Below, one piece after another: positions 6,301 to 59,475 of a stretch of 64,000 nucleotides of DNA. Numbering within the stretch: position 1 is the first letter of the stretch; the number at the start of each line of letters is the position of its first letter. Both the position numbers and the translations under genes were made by a program. This DNA comes from a virus, in the IMG/VR virus record IMGVR_UViG_3300029286_000030, one strand, 5' to 3'. The notes beneath the pieces are model-generated. The model did no database searches. It saw nothing but the letters and a program-made list of their open reading frames with translations, and had not been told where the DNA came from.

Positions 6301-9300
6301 CAACACCATTAGCATAAATAAGAGCTCCTTCAATTAACCAATTTTGATCTTGTGTTGTTGAAGAATTATTCAATATATTAATCGCATATGCGTTTTGATC
6401 AGTAGAATTTATAGTAATAAATCCGCCCAATATTGCACCAGATCCATTTAAAGAATATACTCCATATTCATATCCAGCCCCAGTAGTATTCATAGTTATA
6501 TTTCTAAGTGTAACATTATTAGCACCATTAATAAATACTGCTTTTGTTCCTGCTCCAACATCAAATATATTCACATCAGTCAATTTTGCATTATCTGCTG
6601 TAATATAGAAAATATTAACATCTGCTGTTGCATTATAAATCTTAGCATTTCCTTGCCCTCTAATATTCAATGTTTTATCTACTCTTATTGCGCTGGTAAT
6701 AGTATATGTTCCACTTCCTAAAAGTAATGTATCTCCGGCCGTTGCATTATCAATAAATACTTGTATATTTGCATCTAATGGAACATTAGTTACTCTTCCA
6801 CCAGTCCAATTAACATCATAATATGAAATTCCGTGTGATCCTAAATTAACATCTCTATCTGCACCAGTATAAGGTACAGCTAATTGTCCTATCCATGTAT
6901 TTACATCATTCTTTAGAGCGTAAAATCCATTTGCATCGGCTTTAGTAAGATATGGAACTAACAATTGGTTCGTCCATATATTAACATCGGTTTTTAAAGC
7001 ATAGAATCCATTAGCATCTAATTTAGTTAAATAAGGAACTAATAATTGGTTAGTCCAAGTATTAACATCTCCCTTAAATGCATATAATTGTCCACCCCAT
7101 AAATTTACATCTCCTAAAGTAGCATATGTTGCTCTCATGTTAGCATCAAATACTCCGAATGATGTTTCCCAGTTAGTATCAATAAATCCTGGTATTGCTG
7201 CAATTCTTTGATCTATCCAAACATTAATATCTGTTTTCAATGGATAGAATCCATTAGCATCAACTTTTGTTAAATATGGAATTAATTTTTGGTCAATCCA
7301 AACATTAGTATCTGATTTTAAAGTAAAAAATCCATTAGCATCAGAAGCTAATAAATATGGCATTAAATATTGTGCAATCCATACATTAGTATCTCCAATT
7401 TTTGTATAAGTTGCTTTCATATTAGCATCGAAAACATCCCAAGAAGTTTCCCAGTTAGTATCAGTATATCCAGGTAATGCTGCTATCTTCTGATCGATCC
7501 AAATATTTACATCGTCCTTTAAAGCATAGAATCCATTTGCATCTGTCTTTAATAAATAAGGAACTAATTTATTATCTATCCAAATATTAGTATCATTTAA
7601 TTGTGTATATGTTGCTTTCATATTAGCATCGAATAATCCGAAAGAAGTTTGCCAGTTAGTATCTGTGGGATAACTACAATATGCAACACCCGGAGCAAGT
7701 TGATATATATAAGATCCAGATGGGCATGCTGCTGGGAATCCACTATTTATATCTGTAAATGAAATTGCATAAGAATTAAAATATCCTGTAACAGCATTAT
7801 AATCAGTAATGAATTTTTTTGCAACAAATGCTTTTGTTTGTGGAAGAACTGTTGTAACTGGTAAATATCTTTGATCTCCCCAAGTATTAACATCTTCTTT
7901 TAATGGATAAAATCCATTAGCATCTATTTTAGTTAAATATGGAACTAATTTCTGATCGATCCAAATATTAGTATCTCCAATCTGTGTATAATTTGCCTTC
8001 ATATTTGCATCAAATGTTGCCCATGAAGTTTGCCAATTTGTATCAGTAAATACAGTATTCAATGGTAAATATCTTTGATCTCCCCATAAATTTACATCTG
8101 TTTTAAATGCATAGAAGCCATTAGCATCAGATCCTAATAAATAAGGAACTAAATATTGTGCAATCCAAATATTAGTATCTCCGAGTTGAGTGTATGTAGC
8201 TTTCATATTAGCATCAAATACATTCCAACTAGTTTGCCAGTTAGTATCAGTCATTAATACAGTATTCAATGGTAAATATCTTTGATCGCCCCAAAGATTA
8301 ACATCTGTTTTAAATGCATAAAACATATTAGCGTCCGATCCTAAAATATATGGCGCTAATTTTTGATCTATCCAAATATTAGTATCTGATTTTAAAGTAT
8401 AAAATCCATTAGCATCTACTTTAGTTAAATAAGGAACTAATTTATTATCTATCCAAATATTTGTATCATTTAATTGTGTATAATTTGCTTTCATATTGGC
8501 ATCAAATATTGTCCATGAAGTTTGCCAATTAGTATCAGTAACACCTGGTGGACAATTTGCTCCAGAAACATCACAAACTAAATATCCATTTTGATATATA
8601 TCTCCATTAACATTTAAATCATTAAACATTGTAACAATTAAATTAATATCTATAGTAATTGCTTGATTCATTGATAAATCTGGGCCAGATCCATTTGGCA
8701 TTGATATAATAAACTTTACTCCTGAATTATTATCATATGTTCCTATTGCTCCAGTCCAAACTCCATTATTTGCAAATCTAATTGCAGCTTGACTATTTGG
8801 TGATCCTGATTCGTCTTGATTTGCTACTAAATCTATAAGAGAATCATCATCTGCAGAATAAATACCAGCAATTGTTTTACCTGTAAAATTATGTAACCAT
8901 AATAAATAATTTGTAGCAACAAATCCAGTAGGATCTCCAGCTACTAAATTATGTGCTGTTAATACTCCATTAACATCTAAATCTTGTAACCAATTTCCTA
9001 AATTATCTGTCCATCCAACTGTTTCTGTATTAGTATCAATCATTAAAACAGTATTTAAAGGAAGATATCTTTGATCTCCCCACAGATTTACATCTCCTAA
9101 AGTAGCATATGTGGCTTTCATATTTGCATCAAATACATTCCAACTAGTTTGCCAGTTTGTGTCTCCACTAAATCCAGCAATCTTTTGATCTATCCAAATA
9201 TTTACATCATTCTTTAAAGCATAAAATCCATTAGCATCTGTTTTTAATAAATACGGAGCAATTCTTTGATCGATCCAAACATTAGTATCTGATTTCAAAG

Positions 9301-10423: not shown

Positions 10424-10466
10424 ATGTTTGCGCCTTTATATACTTAATAAATATAACATTTCTTTA

Positions 10467-10482
10467 TTTATAATCCTTTCCT
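10467..10482 (-). promoter_or_regulatory. BRE/TATA-like promoter motif (minus-strand reading GGAAAGGATTATAAAT) upstream of giant protein gene
   Basis: Match to recurring GAAAGG-TTTATAAA motif, 44 nt upstream of ATG at 10423. Confidence 0.45.
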
Positions 10483-10485
10483 TTC

Positions 10486-11148
10486 TTACCGTTTTCTATA
10501 ATAGATAAACAGCATGAACCCTCCTATGATAAATATCAATAATAAGAACATAATCCAGTCTGGTTTTGGCATTATAATGATTGATTTCCCACTTGATGGA
10601 TTAAAATTAAAATCACATGTAACCGATTCAATGTTCATTCCATTACTTGCAAAAATTGTAACACTATTAGTTACAAACGGAATTATATTAGGATCTAGGC
10701 GCGCACAAGACTTATTTGAATCATTTCCAAAACAAAACCCAGTTAAGTCTAATCCAGGATTTCCATTCAATGTGTAATTGATATCAGTAATTGGTTGTCC
10801 TGCTTGTGAATACACATTAAATCTAATTAGATCCAACGAATTAACTGTATAACATCTTGGGTCAATAAGTGTGATAAAAATCTTATAATTTATTAAATCA
10901 AAGTCTGTAAAAAATACTCCGATCCGCGCATAATTTCCATCTGGGGTAGTTACTAATCCTCCAGTCAAATCGTCAGATGCTAATGCTAAAATATAATTTC
11001 CATCTATCGGCAAATTACTATCTCCGATCTCTGTCATATACACTAATTCAACACGAGTGTTTCCATCGGATGTAGTTCCACTAGCTGCGAACACACCTAC
11101 GGTTAATAAGAAAACTAATAAAATTGTTGCAAAAATCTTCATATTCAT
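10486..11148 (-). CDS. Type I membrane/surface protein (signal peptide + C-terminal TM anchor, 220 aa)
   Basis: N-terminal signal MNMKIFATILLVFLLTVGVFAAS, C-terminal hydrophobic segment followed by YYRKR. Confidence 0.6.
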   Translation of the reverse strand: MNMKIFATILLVFLLTVGVFAASGTTSDGNTRVELVYMTEIGDSNLPIDGNYILALASDDLTGGLVTTPDGNYARIGVFFTDFDLINYKIFITLIDPRCYTVNSLDLIRFNVYSQAGQPITDINYTLNGNPGLDLTGFCFGNDSNKSCARLDPNIIPFVTNSVTIFASNGMNIESVTCDFNFNPSSGKSIIIMPKPDWIMFLLLIFIIGGFMLFIYYRKR

Positions 11149-11264
11149 AATTCCACTTTGTCCAAGTGATATATTGTAGATTTTTTCTACATATAAACCT
11201 TTAGTTAAGGGGTTTATTTATATATTATTAGAATTTGCTTATATATAAATCTTTTGATTGTCTT

Positions 11265-11561
11265 TTATTGACCAACGTAAGTTTGTCTTGTTTGGAAGTC
11301 ACTTATTACACTCATAAAGAATAAGATAACCATTATGATTCCTGACATAGAAACTAACATTGCAATAATACTTGCTTGTGCTAAATTATCCATATTTCCA
11401 CCAACTATAGTAGAAACAATTGCATTAGTTACTGGTAAAAGAGCTGCTAAAATAATTAGTCCCATTACTAAAGTAAAAAAACTCATCATTGAGCCTTGAC
11501 CTTTTTGTCCCATTTTTAGAAAATTATTTGGTTTTATTTTTGATGTTTCCATTTTGTTCAC
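11265..11561 (-). CDS. Small membrane protein with candidate archaeal class III (type IV pilin-like) signal peptide (..KMGQKG|QGSMMSFFTLVMGLIILAALL)
   Basis: KG-QGS followed by hydrophobic helix resembles prepilin/archaellin peptidase (FlaK/PibD) substrates; ORF-track start is GTG, in-frame ATG at 11552. Confidence 0.45.
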   Translation of the reverse strand: MNKMETSKIKPNNFLKMGQKGQGSMMSFFTLVMGLIILAALLPVTNAIVSTIVGGNMDNLAQASIIAMLVSMSGIIMVILFFMSVISDFQTRQTYVGQ

Positions 11562-11609: not shown

Positions 11610-11846
11610 TTATTGAATTTGCTCCTGTTCGTCTCCGCCCATGAAATGATTGGGGCCTTGACTCTGTTGCATATAAACATAAAAGATAAAAACTAAAATT
11701 ATTATGAACATTGATGAAACCATTAGAACAACTGTTGATCCCATTGTATTCTGCATGTCTGGAAGTAATGCTTGCCCAATCGGTAACATTACTGCAAAAA
11801 TTATTAATCCTGTAACAAAAATTATTGTTGCTTCCATCCAACCCAT
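11610..11846 (-). CDS. Small membrane protein (78 aa, two TM helices)
   Basis: Hydrophobic ORF; promoter-like TTTATAAACC at 11878-11887 about 32 nt upstream. Confidence 0.4.
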   Translation of the reverse strand: MGWMEATIIFVTGLIIFAVMLPIGQALLPDMQNTMGSTVVLMVSSMFIIILVFIFYVYMQQSQGPNHFMGGDEQEQIQ

Positions 11847-11894: not shown

Positions 11895-14800
11895 TTACAC
11901 TTTTATATCAAGGAAAGTCTTTTCTTTTCCTTTGAATGGAATTGCTTCATTTTGGCTTTCCCATAACTTTTGTTCTTCTCTTTGTATTTGTTGTTGTGTT
12001 GGAATTACATCGTACCCAAAGAATGATCCGCGTTGTGCGATTGTCTTTTGGAATGCTCCAAGTTTATCGGCATCTACTGTAAAGTCTTTTTCACCAAATG
12101 CGAATTTTCTAAATAATGATGATTTAACTTGTATTAATCTTTTTGTCTTTTTTGTTTTCTGGTCTTTACCTTTTTTACCAGATGGGCCACCAACTTGTGG
12201 GGCTGTATAATTTCCACCAAATGGATTTGATAATGGTGCTGATTGTGAAAATAAAGATGGTGAAGATGATGGAGATGATGATATACGTGAACTTGAAATT
12301 ACAGATGATATTGGTTCTGAAATTGTTGATGATTTTTCTGAAACTATTGATTGTTGACTCCATATATCATCAACCATAGATTTTTGTGATTGTGTTAATT
12401 TAACAGATGATGGTATATCTAATTGTTTTATTACATCTTCTTGCATTTTATAAGAATTTAATTTTTCTTGAGGTACTTTAGATTCACTAATTTTTAATTG
12501 TGAAACTATATCCGAAACCATATCTTTTGGAGCAGATGATACACGTATTGGTATTGATATACTTTTTTGCGCAGATATAACTGATGAAATATTATCTGTT
12601 TTTGGTGTATTTTTAATAGTTGTTGGAATTACTCTTTGTATAGGATTCAAATTAAATATATTTGATGTATATCCTAATTCTCTAGCAACTATTGTTTGAG
12701 CTGTTCGTCCACCAGTTTGCCAGTTTGCTAAAAATTCATTTGGCGTTACCCATTTAGCTGCAGCTATTTCACCTGGTCTTGTTATATTAATTTCTCCAGT
12801 TGCTTTTCCAGTAAATAATATATCTTGATTTTGTATTAAATTTCTTGATTGTATTGATGCTACTTTTGTTCTTGGAGATCCTCTAAATTGTCCTCCAAGT
12901 ATATCTGGCATATTACTCTTAGTTAAAAGAGGTGCTAATCCTGTTTCTGCAAATGTTTCTCTGAATGCTGCATATTGTGGAGATTCTCCTGGTCTTACTC
13001 CTCCACCTGGCAATCCCCATGTTCCTGTTTTTGCATCTTGTACAACTAATATCTTTTTTCCCGTTGCATCTGTTATTAATGCTCTTGCAGCTTGTCTAAT
13101 TTCAGTAGTTGCTGATGGATTCAATGCTGTTCCGCCTTTAACATATGCATTAGCACTTGCTTGTGCTATTAATTCTGGAGAAAGTCCTGCTGCTCTTGCT
13201 TGTGCTTCTGCTGCTCTTGACATTTTTACAGCTTGTGCCTCTGCCGCTTGCGCTTTTTGTAAATTTTTAGCATCGCTTTTATTAAAAAATTCAAGTGTAT
13301 TTATTTCTCCTTGAGTAAATTCACTTAAAGGAGCGCCTTCTTTTAATTTATTACTTGTATCAATTCTTAATTGTTTTCTAATAGATCTACCAGCAACTGT
13401 ATCTGGTGATAATAATTTTTGTAAAAATGTTGTTGGCGTAGTTGGTGTAAGTGCTTCTAAATTTTTTCCAGCTAAGAAATAATCAACTGTTTTACCTTCT
13501 ACCGCGGTAAGATTTAATTTACCAGTTTTATCAAATATTTCTAATTTCTTTATTGTATCTTTAATTGCTTGTGCTGTTGGTGGTGCTTCTGATACAGGTT
13601 TACCTAACATTTTAGTAACAAAATCTGTTTCTAATATCTTACTAGCTACTCCAGTTTGTAATAATCTGCCAGCTATATCTGTTCTTGGTCTCATTCCAGT
13701 TTCTAATTGAGTAGCTCTTGAAGTATCTTTCTTTATAAAATAATCAAGTGTATTTAATTCTCCTTGAGTAAATTTATTTAGTGATGCTTCACTTTTTAAT
13801 TTATTACTTGTATCAATTCTCAATTGTTGTCTAACACTTCTACCTGCAATTGTATTTGGAGATAATAATTTTTGTAAAAGTGTTGTTGGTGCTGTAGATC
13901 CAAATTCTAAATTCTTTCCAGCTAAAAAATAATCAACTGTTTTACCTTCTAATGGTGTAAGACTTAATTCTCCAGTTTTTTCAAATGTTTGTAATTTCTT
14001 TATAGCATCTTTGATAGCTTGTTGTGTTGGAGGAGTTTCTACTGGAGTTTTATTTAATAATTTATTAGCCAAATCAGTTTGTAATAAATTACTTGCAATA
14101 TTTGTTTGTAATAATTTACCAAATAAATCTGTTCTTGGGCGCATTCCAGTATTTAATTCACTTATTCTTGCTTCTGTTTTACCTAAAAATTCTTCAACTG
14201 CTTTTGATTCTCCTGGTGTAAGATTTAATTCTCCAGTTCTTTCAAATAACTTTAACTTATCCATAGTATTTTGTATTAATTGATTTCTTTGTGCAACTGT
14301 TAATAATTCCCCTTTATTAAATGCCATATCTTCTGCTATTAATTTAGGCATTAATTTTGTTTCTGCTGGAGTTAATTTCACAGATGGACTTGTAGATATT
14401 TTTGTCTTTAGTGCTGCAATATCAGCAACTTCTTTTGCAGCTGCATCTATTTTAGCATTCATTGCTTGCATATTCTCAACAAACTGTTTTCCTTTTATTT
14501 TTCCAATTTCTTCCCAAGTTGTTGGTGTAATAACTACTGGTTTTAATATTGTTGGTATTGGAGTAGATGTTATTCCTATTATATCAGTTGCACGAACTAT
14601 TTTAGCTCCAAGTGTAGTTGGTTGCACAATATTTCCAATTCCTATCGCAATATCTTTAGTAATATTTTGAGGATAAAATGTTACTTTAGATTCAGCTATA
14701 TTTTGACCTAATGCTACTGCTTTATTTGCTAAATTTTCAGTTCCTATAATTAAATTTTTTCCACCAGTAACAATATTTTTTCCACCTGCTAATATTGTTG

Positions 14801-17800
14801 CCCCTGTTTCAATTACTGCTCCTTTTACTCCTGTTTTCATTCCACTAGTAGATGTTGATGCTTGACTTTTTAATAATGAAAATAAATCTCCTTTTTGTGC
14901 TTTCGCTGTTGTATATGGTTTAGATTCAACTACAACTGCTTTTTTTCCTCCTCCTTCAACAGTAAATATATCTTTCATTTCTGTAATAGTATTAGTATAA
15001 GGATCTGGGCTTGCTCTATATTGTCCTAAAATATTTGATGGATTTCTTATAATTAATAATTTTTCTGATCCTGGAATTACTTTATATGATGATCCTAAAA
15101 CATATTTACCTGTAGTAAGATCAACTCCACTTGATCCTAATTGAACAGCTGTTTCATTATATCCTTGGAATCTTTTTCCATCCCATGCTTTAAGAACTAT
15201 ATCTTGACCTTTTGCATTTTTTCCAAAATTTTCTGTTTGGAAAAACTTTCCAGCATTTTCAGGATTTGAATTTATTCTTGAAATATAATCTTTTACAAGT
15301 TCTCCTTGAATTGGTCTATTTGCTTTGATACTCATGTCAATCATATTTCCTCTTGCAAGTACTACTGATTGCGGTTCTGTATCAAACATACTTTTAAGTT
15401 TAGTCAATGTTAATGGATCTGCTTTAAAAGTACTTTGCCCTTTTCTTTGTACATATGAAAGTAAATCTGTAGTTAATGATTTGCCTGCAGTTATTGGTCT
15501 ATTAGTTGCTAAATCATATCCTATATCTTTTTTTGATAAAACATCTAATAAACTTCGAGTATCTTGTTGTGGTTGTCCTTTACCTGCTTTTTGAGCTACA
15601 TATGCAGGTGTTCCTGTTCCAAGATATGATCCGTATGCAATTGCTAAATATTCTCCAGTTTTTGCTTCTTTAAAAAATGCCATTCCTTCAATATTTTGTT
15701 TACCGAAATATGTATCAATCATTCCATTTTTTGCTCTGTTTGCTTCAGCTCCAGTTGGTTGTTTTTCAAAAATTCCTTGTTGGCCTTTAACTTTTCCACC
15801 GTGGGCGAAATATTCTTTTGCAGATACTTCTGTTAATCCATTTTGTTTTAACCATTTTGCATCTTTTGCCAATGCTGGTCCAGTTCCATCAAATAAAAAC
15901 ATTCTTACTTTATCTCCTAAATAATTTGAAAGTGTACTATATTTCATTCCATTTTTCCCATCATTTGCAATCATTCTCATTATATTTTCTCCAGCAGACA
16001 TTCCTTTAACTGATCTATATGGATCAATAAATTGAGCCGATTTTGGAAATTTAGATACAGTATAATATCCAAGAGAATTTTCTAATATATTTCCTGGAAC
16101 TCTAGCTGCCATTGATCCTAAAGTTGCTCCTGCATATGCTACTCTTAATGATCTATCAATTTCTTCTGCTTCTTTTTCTAATGTTGGATCTTTTCTAACC
16201 ATTTCAATAGATTTTAATCCTTCCATTCCAGTCATTGCCGTGTAATATGCTGGCATCGCAACTGTATTTACAGCTGTTAATACTTTTGAAACTCCAGTAA
16301 GTTTAGACGCTTTTGCGATTTCTCCAGATGCTGCTGCAAGTTGAGATCCTTTTGTATACAATCCTAATCCTTTAATTCCTGCTCCTGCAACACCAAATAC
16401 TGCTCCAGTTGCTAAACTTCCAAGTAATTCATTTGAGTCTTTTGCTTCAGCTGCACCTAATACTGCTGCACCAGTTGTAATAGCTCCACCCAATGGACCG
16501 CCAACAAGCATACCTGCTACATATGGTGCAAAAGTTCCAACTACTCTACCAGTTTGGCCAGCCGCTTGAATTTCTCCTTCTTGTAATACTTCAAATGTAC
16601 CCATTTGTCCATATGCTTTATCTAAATCTCTAGCATATCCTCGTGCGTATTTCTCTGCAACAATTTCTCCAGTTGTTGGAAGAACTTGTGATAACCCAGT
16701 TCCTAACCATCTTGCTCCAGCTTCTATAGGAATTGGTTTAGAAAAGCCACCGCCAGTTAAATAATCTCCAGCTCCAGTAAAAGTTTGACTAGCTTTACCA
16801 CCGGTTGCTACATCTGCTAATAAAAATGGTGGTGTTAAAGACATTATATTACTTGGCGCAATTTCAATTGATTTATCATATCCAGGTAATAAACTTTTTG
16901 AAAAATCTTGTTGATTTGCATATCCTTTTGCATCTCTATTTGCTTGTAAATAAGATTCTCCTAAATTCCATATTCCTTTTCCAGCTGCTACTGTTGTAGT
17001 ATCTCCGCCAATTAAAAATGCATCTTGAACTCCAATTGGAATTTGTTTTGGTAATCCTGTTTTAGGATTATAATTTAATTGAATTAACGGATTTTCGATA
17101 TCATATTTTATTTTTGCTCCATATGGGCTCATTTTATTTTGTTTATAAAAATCACTTGATATTTTATATTCATCTAAAGAAATTAAAGGAGTTGTATCTA
17201 TATTTCCTGGAGTTTTTGTTGCGTACATTCTAAATGTATCTCGCAATGCAATATCTTCTACTTTATTTATATCTCTACTTGGTGTATATGTAATTTCTTC
17301 CATATCTTTTAAATATGCTGCATCTTTTTGTTTATTTAATTCCATTGTTTTTTCAAATGGTATAAACACCATTAATTTTGTTCCATCAGCAGAAGTTTCT
17401 TCTCTAAATAAAGTTGAATCTGTAGTTATTTTTTTCCAATCTGATCCTTCACCATATATTTTATCTAATTCTGTTTTTTTAGTTTCTGAATATTTAGCAA
17501 CATCTTCAAGATTATATCCTGTGGTTTTTGCAAAATCATTCTTTATATTTGATCTATCAGTAAGATATTCATTTTGAATTTTTGCTGTTGGAAATTCATA
17601 TGATATTATTGGATTTCCATCTTTATCTTTTCCTGTTTCACGTGCAAATGCACTATATTTAAAATCAATATCAGCGAATTTTGGCGCAAAGTTTGTACTA
17701 TATGTAGTAAGAGCCGCATCTAGTTTTGGATCTATAATTGCATCTCTTTTTGCAGTTGTACTTTTAATAACTGGATCTGCTACAGTTTGCCATTTTTCTA

Positions 17801-19400
17801 ATGCATCTATACGCGCTTTATTTTCTGTAATAGTAATATCTTTCATATTTGGTGTTTCAACAACTTTACTAATAGGAATTGTTGTTTGTGGAACTTCATC
17901 TTTTCCTAAAAGATCATGCCCAAACATAATAGTACTACCAACAACACTTCCACCTAATTGTACAATTCCTGCAATTGGCGAAGCAATTGCCTTTGCTACT
18001 TGACCAACGCCTGGCCCAGCTAATGCTGTATAATTTTTTTCACCTTGATTTATAACATTAGTAAAATCCATATTTTGTATTCCTCTAGCCCAATCTTCTC
18101 CTCCCATACTAACTGCTTGAATCGCATTTTCTGGTTTTGGTTTAGGTGGAGTATATGGCCCAGCAATTGTATCAACAAGCTGTGTTAAATCTTTTGGTTT
18201 ATCTTTTGGTAAAATAATATTTTTATTAAAATTCTGTAGTGTAACATCTGAAGTTCCTGCAATTCCTGATAAATCTAATGTATCAGCATATTTTTTATAT
18301 ATGTTAAATGAATTTTGAGATATAACACTATTATTATCATAATAATCATTCAATGTTGTTTTTACAATTTCTTTTATTGCAATTTTATCTGCATCTGTTA
18401 ATTCAGTAGCCGCTCTATATTGATTATCTAATGCCATTGCATTTTGAGTTCCTTCTGTTGTTTTTTTCAATAGTTCTTGTCCTGCTGGCCCATAAAATTT
18501 TTCTTGCCCCTGAACTGATTTTTGTCCAAGAATTGTTATAGCATCTTTTAATCTTTCTGGTGTTGGCTGTGGTGGAAGAATAATTGTTTGATCAACATTT
18601 TTAAATTTTGTTAAATCAGACATTGTTTTTTCTGCTCCTGCAACTTGTAATTGTGTACTAAATTTTGAAAAATCTAATGGTGGAGTTAATGTAGACGTTT
18701 GTGGTCTTTCGGTGATTGTTAATGTTGATGGTACAGCTGGTTTTGTAAGTGTTCCAAAAGATGTTTGTTGAATTGTTGTTTTCATTGATGGTGCCATCGA
18801 TACATTTTGATTAGGACCTGATGTAATCATTCCACTTTGTATTGGTTTTGTTGGAGTTAATAATGAAACAGATGATGGTTTTGTAAAATTACTAATTGGC
18901 GATGCGGTTGGAGAAAAATAATTTGGTGTTCCACTCAAATTAAAATAATCTCTTGCTGGTAACAGTGTATTAAACGATCCACTTTGTGCTTGTTCATATG
19001 TTTGTTTAACATATCCAATTCCTGGATCTTTTAATGATGACATTCCTTGTTTTGTTATTGGATTATAATATTGTCCTGGGCCACGATCTTGTATACTAAC
19101 ATTTTGTTGTGTTGCCGTAATAAGTGGTTTTGGTGCAATCAAAGATGATTGTGGAGATGAAGATGATAATTGTATTTTTGGTGGAGTGATTGTTGTTTTT
19201 GGTGGAGTGATTGTTGTTTTTGGCGGTATAATAGTTTGAGTTGGTGGAGGTGGTGGTAATCCTATTCCACCCCAACTAGAATTTTGATTTGGTCCAGAAT
19301 AAATAGGTCCTGGCGCAGTTGAAGTAATTGGAGTTGTAGGTTGTAAATTAAATGGATTTGTATTATTTGTAAGATTGAATGGATTAATTGGTAGTACCAT
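11895..19400 (-). CDS. Giant multidomain protein (2501 aa): Pro/Thr-rich N-terminus (PPKTTIT repeats), Gly/Ala-rich hydrophobic core segments, two tandem ~150-aa repeats, embedded NUDIX hydrolase motif (GGGVRPGESPQYAAFRETFAETGL), Ser-rich tail
   Basis: Single uninterrupted ORF; NUDIX box G-x5-E-x7-RE-x2-(A/E)E-xGU visible; leaderless promoter TTTAAAAACC 24 nt upstream. Confidence 0.85.
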   Translation of the reverse strand: MVLPINPFNLTNNTNPFNLQPTTPITSTAPGPIYSGPNQNSSWGGIGLPPPPPTQTIIPPKTTITPPKTTITPPKIQLSSSSPQSSLIAPKPLITATQQNVSIQDRGPGQYYNPITKQGMSSLKDPGIGYVKQTYEQAQSGSFNTLLPARDYFNLSGTPNYFSPTASPISNFTKPSSVSLLTPTKPIQSGMITSGPNQNVSMAPSMKTTIQQTSFGTLTKPAVPSTLTITERPQTSTLTPPLDFSKFSTQLQVAGAEKTMSDLTKFKNVDQTIILPPQPTPERLKDAITILGQKSVQGQEKFYGPAGQELLKKTTEGTQNAMALDNQYRAATELTDADKIAIKEIVKTTLNDYYDNNSVISQNSFNIYKKYADTLDLSGIAGTSDVTLQNFNKNIILPKDKPKDLTQLVDTIAGPYTPPKPKPENAIQAVSMGGEDWARGIQNMDFTNVINQGEKNYTALAGPGVGQVAKAIASPIAGIVQLGGSVVGSTIMFGHDLLGKDEVPQTTIPISKVVETPNMKDITITENKARIDALEKWQTVADPVIKSTTAKRDAIIDPKLDAALTTYSTNFAPKFADIDFKYSAFARETGKDKDGNPIISYEFPTAKIQNEYLTDRSNIKNDFAKTTGYNLEDVAKYSETKKTELDKIYGEGSDWKKITTDSTLFREETSADGTKLMVFIPFEKTMELNKQKDAAYLKDMEEITYTPSRDINKVEDIALRDTFRMYATKTPGNIDTTPLISLDEYKISSDFYKQNKMSPYGAKIKYDIENPLIQLNYNPKTGLPKQIPIGVQDAFLIGGDTTTVAAGKGIWNLGESYLQANRDAKGYANQQDFSKSLLPGYDKSIEIAPSNIMSLTPPFLLADVATGGKASQTFTGAGDYLTGGGFSKPIPIEAGARWLGTGLSQVLPTTGEIVAEKYARGYARDLDKAYGQMGTFEVLQEGEIQAAGQTGRVVGTFAPYVAGMLVGGPLGGAITTGAAVLGAAEAKDSNELLGSLATGAVFGVAGAGIKGLGLYTKGSQLAAASGEIAKASKLTGVSKVLTAVNTVAMPAYYTAMTGMEGLKSIEMVRKDPTLEKEAEEIDRSLRVAYAGATLGSMAARVPGNILENSLGYYTVSKFPKSAQFIDPYRSVKGMSAGENIMRMIANDGKNGMKYSTLSNYLGDKVRMFLFDGTGPALAKDAKWLKQNGLTEVSAKEYFAHGGKVKGQQGIFEKQPTGAEANRAKNGMIDTYFGKQNIEGMAFFKEAKTGEYLAIAYGSYLGTGTPAYVAQKAGKGQPQQDTRSLLDVLSKKDIGYDLATNRPITAGKSLTTDLLSYVQRKGQSTFKADPLTLTKLKSMFDTEPQSVVLARGNMIDMSIKANRPIQGELVKDYISRINSNPENAGKFFQTENFGKNAKGQDIVLKAWDGKRFQGYNETAVQLGSSGVDLTTGKYVLGSSYKVIPGSEKLLIIRNPSNILGQYRASPDPYTNTITEMKDIFTVEGGGKKAVVVESKPYTTAKAQKGDLFSLLKSQASTSTSGMKTGVKGAVIETGATILAGGKNIVTGGKNLIIGTENLANKAVALGQNIAESKVTFYPQNITKDIAIGIGNIVQPTTLGAKIVRATDIIGITSTPIPTILKPVVITPTTWEEIGKIKGKQFVENMQAMNAKIDAAAKEVADIAALKTKISTSPSVKLTPAETKLMPKLIAEDMAFNKGELLTVAQRNQLIQNTMDKLKLFERTGELNLTPGESKAVEEFLGKTEARISELNTGMRPRTDLFGKLLQTNIASNLLQTDLANKLLNKTPVETPPTQQAIKDAIKKLQTFEKTGELSLTPLEGKTVDYFLAGKNLEFGSTAPTTLLQKLLSPNTIAGRSVRQQLRIDTSNKLKSEASLNKFTQGELNTLDYFIKKDTSRATQLETGMRPRTDIAGRLLQTGVASKILETDFVTKMLGKPVSEAPPTAQAIKDTIKKLEIFDKTGKLNLTAVEGKTVDYFLAGKNLEALTPTTPTTFLQKLLSPDTVAGRSIRKQLRIDTSNKLKEGAPLSEFTQGEINTLEFFNKSDAKNLQKAQAAEAQAVKMSRAAEAQARAAGLSPELIAQASANAYVKGGTALNPSATTEIRQAARALITDATGKKILVVQDAKTGTWGLPGGGVRPGESPQYAAFRETFAETGLAPLLTKSNMPDILGGQFRGSPRTKVASIQSRNLIQNQDILFTGKATGEINITRPGEIAAAKWVTPNEFLANWQTGGRTAQTIVARELGYTSNIFNLNPIQRVIPTTIKNTPKTDNISSVISAQKSISIPIRVSSAPKDMVSDIVSQLKISESKVPQEKLNSYKMQEDVIKQLDIPSSVKLTQSQKSMVDDIWSQQSIVSEKSSTISEPISSVISSSRISSSPSSSPSLFSQSAPLSNPFGGNYTAPQVGGPSGKKGKDQKTKKTKRLIQVKSSLFRKFAFGEKDFTVDADKLGAFQKTIAQRGSFFGYDVIPTQQQIQREEQKLWESQNEAIPFKGKEKTFLDIKV
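13275..14270. repeat. Tandem coding repeat, about 2.2 copies of a ~460-bp unit (about 85% identity) inside the 2501-aa gene
   Basis: Direct DNA similarity 13275-13737 vs 13738-14200 plus partial third copy; encodes repeated RTDLFGKLLQT...TVDYFLAGKNLE module. Confidence 0.8.
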
Positions 19401-19422
19401 ATTAATCTATAAGATTCCTTTA

Positions 19423-19437
19423 TTTAAAAACCTTTGT
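19423..19437 (-). promoter_or_regulatory. BRE/TATA-like promoter (minus reading CAAAGGTTTTTAAAT), TATA 3' edge 24 nt from ATG (leaderless)
   Basis: Conserved motif and spacing. Confidence 0.5.
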
Positions 19438-19438
19438 G

Positions 19439-20797
19439 TTAACGGCTTGCGTCATATTTAAGTTGTTGCGCAGGTGTTAATTTAGAATACATTGTTTTTA
19501 ATGTATATGATGTATCAATTGTTCTTCCTGTTGGAACGTTATATCGCATCCATGCACTTTCTTGTTTGTCAGTAGCTGCTGTTGCTTCTTCTTGTTTAGC
19601 AAAATTTAAAATAGTATTTGATTTATCAACTGCAGCGTCAAATTCAGATCCTGCTTTTTGAATTTTTGCTGTATTTGCAACATCATATTTACTTGCTCTA
19701 TCAGCTAAAATTTTTTCAGCTCTTCTAACAGGAGCTTCATTTGCTAAATTAGTTCCACCAACTAATGATATAAATCCTTTTTTTCTTTCTGTAGCTGCTT
19801 CTAAAATTCTTGCTTGACTTTTTATTAAAGCAGCTGCTCCAGCTTTTTCTGCTTCATACTTAGCTCTATCAACTGCAACCATTTTTTCTAATTCTGCTTT
19901 AAAAGATGGATCTGTAAGTTTCTTTTCTAATATTTCTGCATAAAGTTTATTATATGCAGCATTATCTCGTTGATCTGAAAGTTCTGGTCTATTTTGTTCT
20001 ATCCAAAGTTCTACTTCAAAATCTGTTTTCCATCCTGTTTTAGGATCATAAGTATAAGTTGTTTTTCCATCTTGTATTGTTTGTCCACCGCTTCCGCTTC
20101 CTCCTCCGCTTCCTCCTCCGCTTCCTCCTCCGCTTCCTCCTCCGCCCCAACTTGAATTTTGATTAGGTCCAGAATAAATTGGTCCTGCTGGTGTAGAAGG
20201 TGTTGATGGTTTTGGTAAATTGAAAGGATTTGATGTAGATGGTATATTAAAATAATTTGTAGATGGTTTTGGTGCTGCAGGTGGTGGTGATGCTGGTGGT
20301 TTTGGTGGAGCTGGAGGTGGTGATGCTGGTGGTTTAGGTGGATTAAAAAAATTATTTACTGCTGATGCAATTTGATCAAATGGCCATCCTTGTCTATCAT
20401 AATCAAATGGATAACAATCTTTATTATTTGGAACTCCATCACTATCAAAGTCCATACGTCCATATTTTTTTCTATACTTCTCAGGAACTGCATTCCATGG
20501 TTTATTCATAAATCTTTTAGAAAGAGTGTGTATTTCGCGTGCATCTTCTTCAGCTTTCTTAGCTCTTATTTTCTTTTCTTTTAATTCGTGTATTAATTCA
20601 GTTAATTGTTTTTTATTTAATTCTGTAGATTGTGCGGGCCCAACGTGTAGTGTTTTTTGAACTTGCCTTCCCCATGTATTTGGATATGGGTCAAATGCTG
20701 TAGAAGAACCAATTATTTTTGGTGTAAAATCGTCTGCTAATTTATCAATAGACGAAAAATAATCTGTCTTACCCATCATATTATTTGGTTTATTCAT
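19439..20797 (-). CDS. Hypothetical protein (452 aa) with thrombospondin-type-3-like Ca-binding motif (DFDSDGVPNNKDCYPFDYD), Pro-rich and (GGGS)n linkers, conserved C-terminal domain shared with neighbouring paralogue
   Basis: ORF, promoter motif 23 nt upstream, paralogy to 20840..22294. Confidence 0.75.
   Translation of the reverse strand: MNKPNNMMGKTDYFSSIDKLADDFTPKIIGSSTAFDPYPNTWGRQVQKTLHVGPAQSTELNKKQLTELIHELKEKKIRAKKAEEDAREIHTLSKRFMNKPWNAVPEKYRKKYGRMDFDSDGVPNNKDCYPFDYDRQGWPFDQIASAVNNFFNPPKPPASPPPAPPKPPASPPPAAPKPSTNYFNIPSTSNPFNLPKPSTPSTPAGPIYSGPNQNSSWGGGGSGGGSGGGSGGGSGSGGQTIQDGKTTYTYDPKTGWKTDFEVELWIEQNRPELSDQRDNAAYNKLYAEILEKKLTDPSFKAELEKMVAVDRAKYEAEKAGAAALIKSQARILEAATERKKGFISLVGGTNLANEAPVRRAEKILADRASKYDVANTAKIQKAGSEFDAAVDKSNTILNFAKQEEATAATDKQESAWMRYNVPTGRTIDTSYTLKTMYSKLTPAQQLKYDASR
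19780..19976. repeat. About 197-bp block identical to 21184..21380 (inter-paralogue gene conversion/duplication)
   Basis: Near-100% nucleotide identity between the two tandem paralogues. Confidence 0.8.
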
Positions 20798-20815: not shown

Positions 20816-20835
20816 TTTATTTATAAAGCTTTCGT
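20816..20835 (-). promoter_or_regulatory. BRE/TATA-like promoter (minus reading CGAAAGCTTTATAAATAAAG), 23 nt from ATG
   Basis: Conserved motif and spacing. Confidence 0.5.
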
Positions 20836-20839
20836 TTTA

Positions 20840-22294
20840 TTACTTGTGTAAAGCATCGTATTTATTTTGCTGATCTTTGGTCATTTGAGAGTATAATCCT
20901 TTAAATGTATATGATGCATCAACTGTTCCACCAGTTGGAACATTGTGTCTCATCCATGCACTTTCTTGTTTATCTACAGCTGCTGTTGCTTCTGCTTGTT
21001 TGGCAAAATTTAAATTTGTATTTGATTTATCAACGGCGGCATCAAATGCTGATCCAGCTCTTTCTATTTTAGCTGTATTAGCAGTATCAAATCTAGTTGC
21101 TCTATCAGCTAAAACTTTTTCTGCTTTTTTAACAGGTCCTTCATTTGCTAAATTAGTTCCACCAACTAAACTCAACATTCCTCGTTTTCTTTCTGTAGCT
21201 GCTTCTAAAATTCTTGCTTGACTTTTTATTAAAGCAGCTGCTCCAGCTTTTTCTGCTTCATACTTAGCTCTATCAACTGCAACCATTTTTTCTAATTCTG
21301 CTTTAAAAGATGGATCTGTAAGTTTCTTTTCTAATATTTCTGCATAAAGTTTATTATATGCAGCATTATCTCGTTGATCTCCAAGTTCTGGTTTAGTTTG
21401 TTGTATATAAAATTCTACCCATGGATCTGTAACTGTTGTTCCTTTTGCTTGATTAATTGTTGTTCTACTTCCATCTCCTCCAGTATATGTTACATTTCCA
21501 CCAGTGCCTGATGCAACAGGTATTGTAACCCATCCATCTTTAGCTGAATAAGTATAATTTGCATTTGGACTTGGAGTTCCTGCTCCTACCGGAAGTTGCC
21601 CATATTTAGCTCTATCTGCAGTCACTTGGCCAGAACTAACTCCCGGAGTTCCTCCAGAAGATGTATTTGTTGATGTTGTTTTTACTCCAGAAACAGTAGA
21701 TGGATTAACTATAGTTTGCGTAGACATTTTTTGACCAGTTGGAGTTGTATAATTATAAGAGTAAACATTTCCACCGCTTGAAGATTTAGTAACAGTTACA
21801 GGACTAGTTATTATTGATCCAGCTGGAGTTGCTTGTCTATCATAATCAAAAGGATAACAATCAAATTTATTTAAAACCCCGTCTCCATCAAAATCCATAC
21901 GGCCATACTTTTTTCTATATTTTTCTGGAACAGCGTTCCATGGCGAATTCATAAATTTACTAGAAAGTGTTTTAATTTCTTTTACATCTTCTATCGCTTT
22001 TTTATCTCTTATTTTCTTTTCTTTTAATTCATGTATTAATTCTTTTATTTGTTTTGGATTTAATTCTTTAGATTGTGCAGGACCTAAATGGAATGCTCTT
22101 TGCATTTCTCTACCCCACGTATTTTCATAAGGATCAAATCGTTTCTTTGGGTTTGAAAAAATTTCTTGTTGTTTATAAGGATTAAATGATCCAATACTAA
22201 GAGGCACACGTTGTTTTGGCATAAAATCGTCTGCTAATTTATCAATAGACGAAAAATAGTCTGTCTTACCCATTACATTATTCGATTTCTTCAT
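20840..22294 (-). CDS. Paralogue of 19439..20797 (TSP3-like Ca-binding motif, Thr/Ser/Gly-rich middle, same C-terminal domain); start moved to MKKSNNVMGKTDYF Met
   Basis: N-terminal alignment to paralogue and promoter TTTATAAA 24 nt upstream of 22294; ORF-track extension to 22366 overlaps that promoter. Confidence 0.75.
   Translation of the reverse strand: MKKSNNVMGKTDYFSSIDKLADDFMPKQRVPLSIGSFNPYKQQEIFSNPKKRFDPYENTWGREMQRAFHLGPAQSKELNPKQIKELIHELKEKKIRDKKAIEDVKEIKTLSSKFMNSPWNAVPEKYRKKYGRMDFDGDGVLNKFDCYPFDYDRQATPAGSIITSPVTVTKSSSGGNVYSYNYTTPTGQKMSTQTIVNPSTVSGVKTTSTNTSSGGTPGVSSGQVTADRAKYGQLPVGAGTPSPNANYTYSAKDGWVTIPVASGTGGNVTYTGGDGSRTTINQAKGTTVTDPWVEFYIQQTKPELGDQRDNAAYNKLYAEILEKKLTDPSFKAELEKMVAVDRAKYEAEKAGAAALIKSQARILEAATERKRGMLSLVGGTNLANEGPVKKAEKVLADRATRFDTANTAKIERAGSAFDAAVDKSNTNLNFAKQAEATAAVDKQESAWMRHNVPTGGTVDASYTFKGLYSQMTKDQQNKYDALHK
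21184..21380. repeat. Second copy of the identical 197-bp block
   Basis: Identity to 19780..19976. Confidence 0.8.
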
Positions 22295-22316
22295 AATAAG
22301 TAATATAATGCTGTTA

Positions 22317-59453: not shown

Positions 59454-59475
59454 ATAATTAAATAGATATTTCTTA

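What the first reader, a model, noticed from the sequence alone, without database searches (positions are those of the whole stretch)
11895..19400. 2501-aa giant protein with an embedded NUDIX hydrolase motif, tape-measure-like Gly/Ala hydrophobic segments and a tandem ~460-bp coding repeat
A single 7.5-kb ORF encodes several modules. The N-terminus is Pro/Thr-rich (PPKTTIT x3, encoded by 21-bp tandem repeats near 19180-19250). Long Gly/Ala-rich hydrophobic stretches (GAVFGVAGAGIKGLG; VAGMLVGGPLGGAITTGAAVLGAAEA) resemble tape-measure or ejection proteins. Two tandem ~150-aa repeats are encoded by DNA repeats at 13275-14270. About residue 2000 carries a near-canonical NUDIX box GGGVRPGESPQYAAFRETFAETGL. 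A NUDIX domain inside a giant structural or ejected protein suggests an enzymatic activity delivered with the particle. Candidate activities are 5'-end (NAD-cap or triphosphate) processing of host RNA or hydrolysis of nucleotide second messengers, which would be anti-defence. The N-terminal PIYSGPNQNSSWGG module is shared with the 19439 gene, indicating modular shuffling.
Basis: partly seen in the sequence, partly recalled or inferred. Interest (0 to 1): 0.65.

Follow-up and report, generated by a model that had tools for sequence, protein, structure and literature searches.

The report
Giant modular protein with NUDIX payload
A 2,501-residue protein from an uncultured low-GC replicon really contains a NUDIX hydrolase domain and belongs to a tiny orphan family whose conserved ends frame swappable middle sections. 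Nothing shows it is a phage tape measure, and this copy's NUDIX motif has lost one conserved glutamate.

Summary
ORF 11895-19400(-) encodes 2,501 aa with a genuine NUDIX domain: Pfam E=4e-18 and a confident AlphaFold NUDIX fold. The 450-bp and 21-bp coding repeats and the 43-aa module shared with the next gene are also real. Two corrections apply. The Nudix box lies at residues 2132-2154, not ~2000. It reads RETFAE, so the first Glu of the EE pair is Ala, whereas three orthologues keep canonical REVFEE or REIFEE.

Outside the NUDIX domain the protein is an orphan. An exhaustive HMMER search of 1.84 billion representatives with aa 421-1560 found one orthologue, and about 18 metagenomic loci share the conserved ~90-aa C-terminal module. 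None was found in the GTDB species genomes or the IMG/VR viral contigs.

Family members share N- and C-terminal modules but carry unrelated middles. Two contigs are 100% identical in the flanks yet have different cassettes.

The gene sits in a strictly conserved block with two small two-helix membrane proteins and giant signal-peptide proteins.

No tail, capsid or tape-measure homology was found. The replicon (large archaeal-type virus or mobile element versus reduced symbiont) is unresolved.

Best reading: a modular carrier protein with an exchangeable enzymatic payload. Interest is moderate.

The parts
11895..19400 (-). Giant ORF, 2,501 aa, with no N-terminal signal peptide
19419..19430 (-). 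TATA-like motif TTTTTAAATAAA starting exactly 30 nt upstream of the ATG. The same motif and spacing occur at three other genes, which suggests an archaeal-type promoter with a leaderless mRNA.
   Evidence: inference
19260..19385 (-). N-terminal NPFNL...GPIYSGPNQNSSWGG module (aa 6-47), shared with the middle of the upstream 452-aa gene product
19175..19223 (-). Perfect 21-bp tandem repeat, 2.3 copies, encoding PPKTTIT repeats
18987..19088 (-). Conserved N-module (aa ~105-138, RGPGQYYNPITKQGMSSLKDPGIGYVKQTYEQA), present in the family members whose N-terminus was recovered, whatever their middle
16071..16700 (-). Gly/Ala-rich, small-xxx-small (glycine-zipper-like) core, aa ~901-1110. It is the most conserved internal region among orthologues and is only moderately hydrophobic.
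13278..14158 (-). Coding tandem repeat, period 450 bp, 1.9 copies, 79% matches (aa ~1748-2041). The duplication is specific to this lineage.
12723..13097 (-). NUDIX domain (aa 2102-2226)
12939..13007 (-). Nudix box GGVRPGESPQYAAFRETFAETGL (aa 2132-2154)
12948..12950 (-). Codon GCA = Ala2151, replacing the first Glu of the EE pair in REUXEE
12201..12638 (-). Ser-rich low-complexity linker (aa ~2255-2400, 25% Ser)
11898..12173 (-). Conserved C-module (aa ~2410-2501; LIQVKSSLFRKFAFGEKD...FFGYDVIPT...FLDIKV). It always forms the very C-terminus and is the family signature.
11610..11846 (-). 78-aa protein with two hydrophobic helices, found immediately downstream of the giant gene in all but one (L023) of the 13 family loci whose contig extends past it
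11265..11552 (-). 95-aa protein with two hydrophobic helices, the next gene downstream. It is the most conserved protein of the block (58-84% identity).
19439..20797 (-). 452-aa upstream gene, paralogue of the next gene upstream, carrying the shared module and a DxDxDG...DCxPFD calcium-binding-like motif
20840..22294 (-). 484-aa paralogue. The true ATG is at 22294; the 508-aa TTG-start ORF call is probably too long.

Best explanation
The gene encodes a modular carrier protein of an uncultured, low-GC replicon that uses archaeal-looking expression signals.

**Proposed anatomy.**
- The short conserved N-module and the ~90-aa basic C-module are kept whatever lies between them. I infer that they dock the protein to lineage-specific partners.
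- The likeliest partners are the two small two-helix membrane proteins encoded directly downstream in nearly all loci that extend that far.
- The same modules also serve as homology arms for recombination that swaps the middle.
- The conserved Gly/Ala-zipper core is inferred to be a membrane-active segment.

**Proposed payload.** In this subfamily the payload near the C-terminus is a NUDIX pyrophosphohydrolase. It would cleave a nucleoside-diphosphate-X compound such as ADP-ribose, a dinucleoside polyphosphate, or an NAD or 5' cap on RNA. I infer it acts in or at another cell after delivery.

**Delivery vehicle.** This is unresolved. It could be a virion of a large archaeal-type virus, or the surface apparatus of a reduced episymbiont.

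**This particular allele.** The NUDIX metal-binding and catalytic helix carries Glu2151 to Ala, so the payload is probably attenuated or altered compared with its orthologues.

**Shown versus inferred.**
- Shown: the NUDIX fold, the family architecture, the cassette exchange and the conserved gene block.
- Inferred: docking, membrane activity, delivery, substrate, and the effect of the Ala substitution.
For: **NUDIX domain.**
- Pfam E=4.3e-18.
- AlphaFold2 core pLDDT above 90, pTM 0.74.
- 536 PDB chains match at Foldseek E<=1e-3, all NUDIX.
- The domain is among the three best-conserved parts across orthologues, with 37% invariant positions, which implies selection on it.

**Orphan scaffold.**
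- phmmer of aa 421-1560 against 1.84 billion representatives finds only itself and P0125.
- A full-length family profile hits only NUDIX chains in the PDB.

**Conserved ends, variable middle.**
- P0002 and P0003 match only aa ~4-250 and aa 2388-2501.
- 18 metagenomic loci carry the C-module at the extreme C-terminus.
- There are at least four middle types.
- L015 (NUDIX type) and L016 (other type) are 100% identical in DNA over 126 bp of the N-module. They are also 100% identical over 1,447 bp covering the C-module and downstream genes, yet the middles are unrelated.

**Alternative payload.** P0002 and L013 share a module with an HExxH motif and a conserved downstream EAL helix.

**Conserved block.** The order 484-like, giant, 78 aa, 95 aa, ~220 aa, second giant signal-peptide protein recurs across the loci, as far as each contig reaches.

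**Precedents for NUDIX carried on giant or virion proteins.**
- NUDIX fused to MuF, portal or head protease in phages (PMC9503650).
- The BcepB1A gp26 and phrog_15528 portal matches.
- NUDIX domains in Omnitrophota giant proteins (bioRxiv 10.1101/2023.11.21.568195).
Against: - The giant protein has no signal peptide and no strong transmembrane helix, so export or delivery is unproven.
- No virion structural gene and no secretion ATPase was recognised in the ~73 kb available.
- Only one enzymatic domain is recognisable in this protein.
- The HExxH module of the sister types has no Pfam or PDB profile support.
- The C-module gave no confident fold: pLDDT 54.5.
- Ala2151 replaces a Glu that is at least 90% conserved. 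The equivalent residue is proposed as a catalytic residue in RppH (PMC7144940). The payload may therefore be inactive in this allele.
- The cassette polymorphism rests on metagenome assemblies, and L015 is truncated exactly at the branch point.
Confidence: 0.35

Rival explanations
1. It is the tape-measure or ejection protein of a tailed virus. The Gly/Ala segments would form the membrane channel on ejection, and the NUDIX domain would be injected with the DNA to process host RNA ends or signalling nucleotides.
For: - Conserved N- and C-ends with a variable, enzyme-bearing middle and Gly/Ala-rich hydrophobic stretches resemble the general layout I recall for tape-measure proteins with embedded enzymatic motifs (own knowledge, not tested).
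- The replicon has virus-like traits. These include six paralogous HNH endonuclease genes, a compact and very divergent PolB (44 bits to archaeal PolB), and NrdD and MazG nearby.
- Its closest PolB relative found (35% identity) lies on an IMG/VR contig. That contig also encodes a portal homologue, plus an ORF I take by eye to be terminase-like from a PRGHGKS Walker-A motif.
Against: - No tape-measure, tail tube, sheath, baseplate, chaperone, portal, terminase or capsid family matches the protein or any scanned ORF of the window.
- tblastn against 50,697 phage records hits only the NUDIX part.
- The C-module is absent from IMG/VR.
- The downstream genes encode membrane and signal-peptide proteins, not tail-tip proteins.
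- Near-identical genomes would carry proteins of 1,403 aa versus at least 1,889 aa, which implies very different tail lengths.
Confidence: 0.15
2. It is a cell-associated giant protein of a reduced, host-dependent archaeon (DPANN-like). It would be part of a surface or host-contact apparatus together with the neighbouring giant secreted proteins. The NUDIX domain would work on the symbiont's own side, for example in nucleotide salvage at the contact site, rather than being delivered.
For: - The window carries cell-type genes: UppS, a GT4/MraY-like transferase, LemA-TPM, Band7, SIMPL, MTA/purine nucleoside phosphorylase, a phosphoribosyltransferase, a PfkB kinase and an epimerase.
- The neighbouring 1,027-aa, 2,362-aa and 220-aa proteins have signal peptides or anchors and, by eye, many N-x-S/T sequons.
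- Clusters of giant orphan proteins are described in reduced archaea: SPEARE (PMC6642349) and Sukunaarchaeum (bioRxiv 10.1101/2025.05.02.651781).
- ERCC4 matches archaeal Hef/XPF best.
- TATA-like motifs at -30 and GTGAT-type ribosome-binding sites fit an archaeal system.
Against: - In ~73 kb there is one tRNA and no ribosomal protein, aminoacyl-tRNA synthetase, RNA polymerase or translation factor gene among the ORFs scanned or precomputed.
- PolB is far from cellular archaeal PolB.
- There are six HNH homing-endonuclease-like genes in 64 kb.
- The C-module was not found in 185,579 GTDB species genomes. The six window proteins that could be looked up have no NCBI or UniRef cluster-mate at 90% identity.
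- The giant protein itself lacks a signal peptide and an anchor.
Confidence: 0.25
3. The NUDIX domain in this protein is a pseudoenzyme. It would be a nucleotide- or ADP-ribose-binding module with no hydrolysis, and the protein would be purely structural or adhesive.
For: - Ala2151 replaces a Glu that is at least 90% conserved in the metal-binding helix.
- This copy has a 6-8-residue low-confidence loop insertion relative to its orthologues.
- From memory, non-catalytic NUDIX homology domains with a degenerate REUXEE are known, for example the NUDT9-H domain of human TRPM2.
Against: - All other box positions (G, E2139, R2147, E2148, E2152, G2154) and the downstream Glu2211 are intact.
- The three orthologues have fully canonical boxes.
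- The domain is strongly conserved.
- The change is a single nucleotide, so the loss, if any, is recent and allele-specific.
Confidence: 0.15

Closest known systems
Virion-packaged NUDIX fusions and 'polyvalent' effector proteins of phages and conjugative elements (Iyer et al. 2017, PMC5512222; Iyer et al. 2022, PMC9503650)
   Same: - A large multidomain polypeptide carries an enzymatic domain on a non-enzymatic scaffold.
- NUDIX fused to head proteins is documented.
- A zincin-like HExxH domain is the commonest hub of polyvalent proteins, and two sister contigs here carry an HExxH module in place of NUDIX.
- The architectures are variable and shuffled.
   Different: - None of the polyvalent hub domains (MuF, ArdC-N, SNF2/methylase, MPTase-PolyVal) is detected.
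- Only one recognisable enzyme is present per protein.
- No terminase-portal or relaxase/T4SS context is seen.
- The conserved N- and C-terminal framing modules are not a described feature.
- The paper notes a paucity of large polyvalent proteins in archaea.
Tape-measure proteins with embedded enzymatic motifs (own knowledge: mycobacteriophage TM4 TMP, T5 Pb2)
   Same: - Very long and largely non-globular.
- Gly/Ala-rich hydrophobic stretches.
- An enzymatic motif embedded in a structural protein.
- Ends more conserved than the middle.
   Different: - No sequence or profile similarity to any tape-measure family.
- No tail genes around it.
- The downstream genes encode membrane or secreted proteins.
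Giant host-interaction proteins of reduced symbionts and predators: SPEARE of Nanohaloarchaeota (PMC6642349), Omnitrophota 'Archaeovorins' containing NUDIX (bioRxiv 10.1101/2023.11.21.568195), and the large orphan proteins of Sukunaarchaeum (bioRxiv 10.1101/2025.05.02.651781)
   Same: - Giant, mostly orphan proteins encoded side by side on one strand in small or reduced genomes.
- Enzymatic domains embedded in them (NUDIX in the Archaeovorins).
- A presumed role at the interface with another cell.
   Different: - No homology to them.
- No transmembrane anchor or signal peptide in this protein.
- No protease, adhesion or restriction-enzyme domains.
- Far smaller than the Archaeovorins.
- The cassette exchange between conserved ends is not described for those proteins.
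Stand-alone NUDIX hydrolases (T. thermophilus Ndx1 Ap6A hydrolase, C. trachomatis CT771, NUDT12/NudC, RppH, D. radiodurans DR1025)
   Same: - The same fold and the same box.
- They are the best structural and sequence matches.
   Different: - Only 17-27% identity, so no subfamily assignment is possible.
- Here the domain is ~6% of a 2,501-aa protein.
- The REUXEE motif reads RETFAE.

Membership tests
NUDIX hydrolase superfamily | Sequence match to the NUDIX domain profile above the curated threshold | tested here: met
   PF00293 at 66 bits against a cut-off of 21.1, E=4.3e-18, aa 2102-2226. NCBIfam and PHROG NUDIX families also match.
NUDIX hydrolase superfamily | Alpha/beta/alpha NUDIX fold | tested here: met
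   AlphaFold2 with a 67-sequence alignment gives mean pLDDT 77.5, a core above 90 and pTM 0.74. Foldseek returns probability 1.00 to Ndx1, NUDT12, CT771, DR1025, NudC and RppH.
NUDIX hydrolase superfamily | Complete Nudix box GX5EX7REUXEEXGU with all three REUXEE glutamates | tested here: not met
   This allele reads RETFAETG, with Ala2151 encoded by GCA. Orthologues L007, L015 and L018 read REVFEETG or REIFEETG. The position is at least 90% Glu in 67 aligned domains.
NUDIX hydrolase superfamily | Metal-dependent hydrolysis of a nucleoside-diphosphate-X substrate | not testable with these tools
   Needs a biochemical assay of aa ~2085-2262 and of the A2151E revertant.
Phage tape-measure protein | Homology to a known tape-measure family | tested here: not met
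   No Pfam or PHROG tape-measure hit at E<=1e-3. tblastn against 50,697 phage records hits only the NUDIX part.
Phage tape-measure protein | Position in a tail module, between tail chaperones or tube genes and tail-tip genes | tested here: not met
   Upstream lie two coiled-coil paralogues and a GT4 transferase. Downstream lie 78-aa and 95-aa two-helix membrane proteins and signal-peptide giants. No tail family was detected.
Phage tape-measure protein | Protein length sets tail length, and the protein is present inside the tail | not testable with these tools
   Needs particles and proteomics.
Polyvalent proteins (Iyer et al. 2017) | Several unrelated effector domains in one polypeptide, including the hub domains MPTase, ArdC-N, SNF2-methylase or MuF | tested here: not met
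   Only NUDIX is detected in this protein. The HExxH module of sister types has no profile support.
Polyvalent proteins (Iyer et al. 2017) | Encoded by a terminase-portal phage or a conjugative element | tested here: inconclusive
   No terminase, portal, relaxase or T4SS gene was found in ~73 kb. The replicon nevertheless has virus-like traits.
SPEARE proteins of Nanohaloarchaeota | Serine protease, laminin-G or adhesion, and type III restriction-enzyme domains with a transmembrane anchor | tested here: not met
   None of these domains and no anchor were detected.
New family defined here (conserved-ends giant proteins) | C-module LIQVKSS[LF]FRKF..G..D...FFGYD..PT at the extreme C-terminus, plus an N-module (RGPGQYYNP/DPGxGY), plus the adjacent 78-aa and 95-aa genes | tested here: met

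The most novel reading that the evidence does not exclude
The family is a natural 'payload-swapping' delivery scaffold of a so-far undescribed large archaeal virus or episymbiont lineage.
- The N- and C-modules would act both as docking signals for a membrane-embedded partner set (the 78-aa and 95-aa proteins, possibly small hydrophobic hairpin capsid or envelope proteins like those of spindle-shaped archaeal viruses) and as homology arms.
- Through those arms, whole 4-5-kb effector cassettes (NUDIX, HExxH peptidase-like and others unknown) would be exchanged between co-circulating strains in an arms race with the host.
Probability: 0.2. Interest if true: 0.8.

Novelty: new variant of a known kind. 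Interest (0 to 1): 0.5.

Why it matters
- **New example in new territory.** If the reading is right, this is a new, sequence-orphan example of an enzyme shipped on a giant carrier protein. It comes from a replicon that uses archaeal-type signals, and large polyvalent-type proteins are reported to be scarce in archaea.
- **Cassette replacement.** Flanks that are 100% identical frame unrelated 3.7-5.3-kb middles. This points to strong diversifying selection at an interface with another organism, and gives a clean natural system for studying how effector payloads are exchanged.
- **A testable NUDIX contrast.** The subfamily offers an experiment with a built-in control. Three orthologues have a canonical box, and this allele has a single-nucleotide Glu-to-Ala change.
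- **If it is ordinary.** The finding would then reduce to a NUDIX domain fused to an orphan giant protein. Such fusions have precedents in phage head proteins and Omnitrophota giant proteins.

Tried and rejected
1. **Whole-protein word-indexed search** gave only three proteins. Low-complexity words probably swamped the candidate list. The C-module profile search added only a 104-aa fragment.
2. **C-module scans** of the GTDB genomes and of IMG/VR both found nothing.
3. **Taxonomy via RtcB** was uninformative. The best match was 59% to Bacteroidales MAGs, with 54% to Huberarchaeum. This looks like horizontal transfer.
4. **AlphaFold2 of the C-module** gave pLDDT 54.5 and was unusable, so no fold search was run on it.
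5. **HExxH module of P0002 and L013 as a zincin** found no Pfam or PDB support. It is kept only as a motif-level observation.
6. **The 78-aa and 95-aa proteins as spindle-virus capsid proteins.**
   - Profiles gave no PDB hit at E<=10.
   - tblastn against phages gave nothing.
   - PHROG hits were only marginal and uninformative.
   - Only the size and two-helix topology resemble such proteins.
7. **Borg-like element** was rejected. Perfect tandem repeats are few.
8. **Split PolB** was rejected. The 638-aa ORF aligns end to end with a 592-aa PolB on L084.
9. **RtcB interrupted by an intein or endonuclease** was rejected. The 390-aa ORF covers the whole short RtcB model.
10. **Silent alternative cassettes elsewhere in the window** were not found.
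11. **Genome terminus at window position 1** was rejected. Two assemblies break at the same base, but inside another signal-peptide gene.
12. **Search for hallmark virion genes** over most ORFs of at least 100 aa found none.
Full report
**1. The observation**

- The window has a 2,501-codon ORF at 11895..19400 on the minus strand.
- The identical protein (P0001) is called on seven contigs from JGI sample 3300029268, ENA ERZ27250602 and Logan SRR8441843, always as one gene.
- Tandem Repeats Finder confirms two coding repeats:
  - a perfect 21-bp repeat at 19175-19223 with 2.3 copies, so PPKTTIT occurs twice plus a partial copy, not three times;
  - a 450-bp repeat at 13278-14158 with 1.9 copies and 79% matches.
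- An 82-nt stretch at 19260-19341 is 77% identical to 20135-20216 in the next gene. At protein level this is 43 residues at 67% identity, including GPIYSGPNQNSSWGG.
- The Gly/Ala-rich stretches are real (aa ~940-1110). They reach Kyte-Doolittle means of only 1.38-1.44 over 19 residues, so they are glycine-zipper-like rather than classical membrane helices.
- There is no N-terminal signal peptide.

**2. The NUDIX domain**

*It is a real NUDIX domain.*
- Pfam PF00293 matches aa 2102-2226 with E=4.3e-18. NCBIfam, PHROGs and PDB sequence searches agree.
- An AlphaFold2 model built on a 67-sequence alignment has a core pLDDT above 90 and pTM 0.74.
- Foldseek finds 536 PDB chains at E<=1e-3, all NUDIX. 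The top hits are:
  - Ndx1 (Ap6A hydrolase);
  - NUDT12;
  - CT771;
  - DR1025;
  - NudC;
  - RppH.
- Viral predicted structures give only generic NUDIX matches.
- The nearest sequence relatives outside the family are stand-alone ~154-aa NUDIX proteins scoring at most 66 bits. No substrate class can be assigned.

*The box and its one deviation.*
- The box is at aa 2132-2154, not ~2000.
- It reads G-GVRPG-E-SPQYAAF-RETFAE-TGL. The first Glu of the EE pair is Ala2151, codon GCA, one transversion from GAA.
- That column is Glu in at least 90% of the 67 aligned domains and in all three orthologous giant proteins.
- In E. coli RppH the equivalent E56 is proposed as a catalytic residue, while E53 and E57 bind the metals (PMC7144940).
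- The substitution therefore probably lowers or changes activity in this allele. Inactivity is not demonstrated.

**3. The rest of the protein is an orphan with a distinctive family architecture**

*No relatives beyond the family.*
- phmmer of aa 421-1560 against 1.84 billion cluster representatives finds only the protein itself and one orthologue, P0125 (1,994 aa).
- A full-length three-sequence profile hits only NUDIX chains in the PDB.
- tblastn against 50,697 phage records hits only the NUDIX segment, matching the BcepB1A head maturation protease gp26.

*Conserved ends.*
- Two other giant proteins, P0002 (2,286 aa) and P0003 (1,845 aa), match only the N-terminal ~250 residues and the last ~110 residues at 58-65% identity.
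- A profile of that C-terminal module found nothing in one genome per GTDB species or in IMG/VR.
- The same profile found 18 loci in JGI metagenomes. All have 30-37% GC, and the module always forms the extreme C-terminus.

*Variable middles.*
- From these loci, L015 and L018 (the latter is P0125) align with the query over almost their full length at 28-38% identity and carry NUDIX domains with canonical boxes. The 459-aa fragment L007 also carries a canonical NUDIX domain.
- P0002/L016, P0003 and L013/L012 have unrelated middles.
- P0002 and L013 share a module with HExxH and a conserved downstream EAL helix. This module has no Pfam or PDB profile support.

*Which parts are conserved within the NUDIX subfamily*:

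| Region | Invariant positions |
|---|---|
| Gly/Ala core | 32-36% |
| NUDIX domain | 37% |
| C-module | 40% |

Most of the second copy of the 450-bp repeat is absent from the orthologues.

**4. Cassette exchange**

- L015 (NUDIX type) and L016 (another type) come from different samples.
- They are 100% identical in DNA over 126 bp in the N-module.
- They are also 100% identical over 1,447 bp spanning the last ~270 bp of the giant gene and the two downstream genes.
- The 5.3 kb and 3.7 kb in between are unrelated.
- The similarity of the end modules does not follow the middle type. For example, our C-module is closer to P0002 than to L015.
- The conserved ends thus behave as the fixed frame, and plausibly as the homology arms, for swapping the middle.
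- No silent alternative cassettes occur in the window.
- Caveat: this rests on short-read assemblies.

**5. Gene context**

- Across the family loci the gene order recurs as far as each contig reaches:
  - ERCC4 nuclease;
  - a 215-aa signal-peptide protein;
  - a GT4 transferase in most loci;
  - a ~480-600-aa protein, present here as two paralogues;
  - the giant gene;
  - a 78-aa protein;
  - a 95-aa protein;
  - sometimes a homing endonuclease;
  - a ~220-aa signal-peptide protein;
  - a second giant signal-peptide protein (2,362 aa here).
- In this window a 1,027-aa Kelch-like signal-peptide protein follows the second giant.
- The 78-aa and 95-aa proteins each have two hydrophobic helices. 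The 95-aa protein is the best conserved of the block, up to 84% identity.
- Neither small protein has any PDB, Pfam or phage relative of note.
- A TATA-like TTTWTAAATAA motif starts exactly 30 nt upstream of the ATG of four genes: the giant gene, both upstream paralogues, and one gene at 59453. Many other genes have a GTGAT-type ribosome-binding site.
- This pattern suggests archaeal-type promoters with leaderless transcripts. The motif as such is only weakly enriched in this AT-rich DNA.

**6. What replicon is this?**

It is unresolved.

*Traits that look cellular*:
- UppS;
- a GT4 transferase;
- LemA-TPM;
- Band7;
- SIMPL;
- nucleoside phosphorylase;
- a phosphoribosyltransferase;
- a PfkB kinase;
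- an epimerase.

*Traits that look viral or like a mobile element.*
- Six paralogous HNH endonuclease genes plus a NUMOD3 ORF in 64 kb.
- A compact PolB with only 44 bits to archaeal PolB or Pol alpha.
  - Its closest relative found (35% identity) lies on an IMG/VR contig.
  - That contig also carries a portal homologue.
  - By eye, it also carries a terminase-like ORF.
- NrdD, MazG and many tiny orphan ORFs just beyond the window.
- RtcB and Ro60.
- One tRNA and no ribosomal, tRNA-synthetase or RNA-polymerase genes in ~73 kb.
- The C-module was not found in the GTDB genomes, and the window proteins that could be looked up have no NCBI cluster-mates.

*Evidence against a virus.*
- No capsid, portal, terminase or tail family was found in any ORF scanned.
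- The family is absent from IMG/VR.

I put a virus or mobile element slightly ahead of a reduced archaeal symbiont.

**7. Interpretation**

- The best-supported reading is a modular carrier protein:
  - fixed N- and C-modules;
  - a conserved Gly/Ala-zipper core;
  - an exchangeable enzymatic payload, which is NUDIX in this subfamily.
- Docking to the adjacent small membrane proteins, membrane activity of the Gly/Ala core, and delivery to another cell are inferences. They rest on architecture, synteny and precedent.
- The precedents are:
  - NUDIX fused to MuF, portal or head protease in phages;
  - polyvalent proteins with zincin hubs;
  - NUDIX domains in giant Omnitrophota proteins;
  - giant host-interaction proteins of reduced archaea.
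- The tape-measure label fails both testable membership criteria, homology and tail-module context.
- The window's own allele may carry a weakened NUDIX.

**8. Novelty and score**

- A NUDIX domain on a giant or virion-associated protein is not new in kind.
- Three things are new:
  - the orphan family itself;
  - its conserved-ends, swapped-middle design, with evidence of recent cassette replacement;
  - its setting in an unclassified replicon that looks archaeal.
- I rate it a new variant of a known kind, with interest 0.5.

Noticed in passing
L015:1-126 and 5402-6848 versus L016:6214-6339 and 10043-11489: Two contigs from different samples are 100% identical in DNA on both sides of the giant gene's middle, but carry unrelated 5.3-kb (NUDIX type) and 3.7-kb middles. 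L015 begins exactly at the branch point.
   Followed up: partly
window 25273-25839, 26574-27137, 29248-29865, 32296-33120, 39568-40257 (all -), 60836-61519 (+): Six paralogous HNH-type (phrog_1035 'endonuclease VII'-like, WHIDHIxPC...NLQPLW) endonuclease genes, 31-54% identical to each other, lie scattered between conserved genes. Their positions differ between related contigs, as expected of homing endonucleases.
   Followed up: partly
window 19419-19430, 20816-20827, 22313-22324, 59472-59483 (all -): The motif TTTWTAAATAA[ACG] starts exactly 30 nt upstream of the ATG of four genes. Many other genes have a GTGAT-type ribosome-binding site 5-10 nt upstream. This suggests archaeal TATA-box promoters with leaderless mRNAs. 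It also implies the '508-aa' ORF really starts at ATG 22294 (484 aa).
   Followed up: partly
window 34575-36491 (-) and L084:405-2180: A compact 638-aa family B DNA polymerase is very divergent, with 44 bits to archaeal PolB or Pol alpha. Its closest relative found (35% identity, full length) is on an 8.9-kb IMG/VR contig that also encodes a portal homologue and an ORF with a terminase-like PRGHGKS Walker-A motif.
   Followed up: partly
window 1-100 (-) and L083 end: The window and an independent contig from another sample both end at the same nucleotide. The break lies inside a further gene that starts at ~100 and encodes a signal peptide (MKITNIFLSALLLICLLSGVFAFAGG...). This is probably an assembly break at another polymorphic or repeated surface-protein gene.
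   Followed up: partly
window 3335-10423 (-) and 203-3286 (-): Two giant signal-peptide proteins sit side by side. The 2,362-aa protein is built from many 81-bp (27-aa) repeats. The 1,027-aa protein has Kelch/beta-propeller-like repeats and, by eye, many N-x-S/T sequons. The 2,362-aa protein also diverges sharply between related contigs after a conserved N-terminus.
   Followed up: partly
window 19439-20797 and 20840-22294 (-): Two tandem paralogues are 59% identical. Each has a thrombospondin-type-3-like motif (MDFDxDGVxNxxDCYPFDYDRQ) and a long helical C-terminal half. Only the 452-aa copy carries the module shared with the giant protein, plus perfect 12-bp repeats (GSGG runs) at 20093-20145.
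   Followed up: partly
window 29870-31384 (-), 49626-50798 (-), 50777-51673 (-): A Ro60/TROVE-vWA protein and an RtcB RNA ligase are encoded in the same replicon. The Ro60 gene contains a perfect 51-bp tandem repeat at 30045-30154. A NUMOD3-containing ORF overlaps the start of RtcB. RtcB is most similar (59%) to Bacteroidales proteins, which suggests horizontal acquisition.
   Followed up: partly
L081:10582-20500 (beyond the window's right end): Just outside the window lie a 1,060-aa orphan protein, S-adenosylhomocysteine hydrolase, an anaerobic ribonucleotide reductase NrdD with an ATP-cone, and MazG.
   Followed up: no
P0002 aa ~1500-1650; L013 giant ORF aa ~1190-1380: The sister giant proteins P0002 and L013, which lack NUDIX, share a module with HExxH (LLHEIQH / LIHELAH) and a conserved downstream EAL-x-x-F...AP-x-E-x-L-x-P-x-T-x-TGK stretch. 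It looks like a minimal zincin, but no Pfam or PDB profile supports this.
   Followed up: partly
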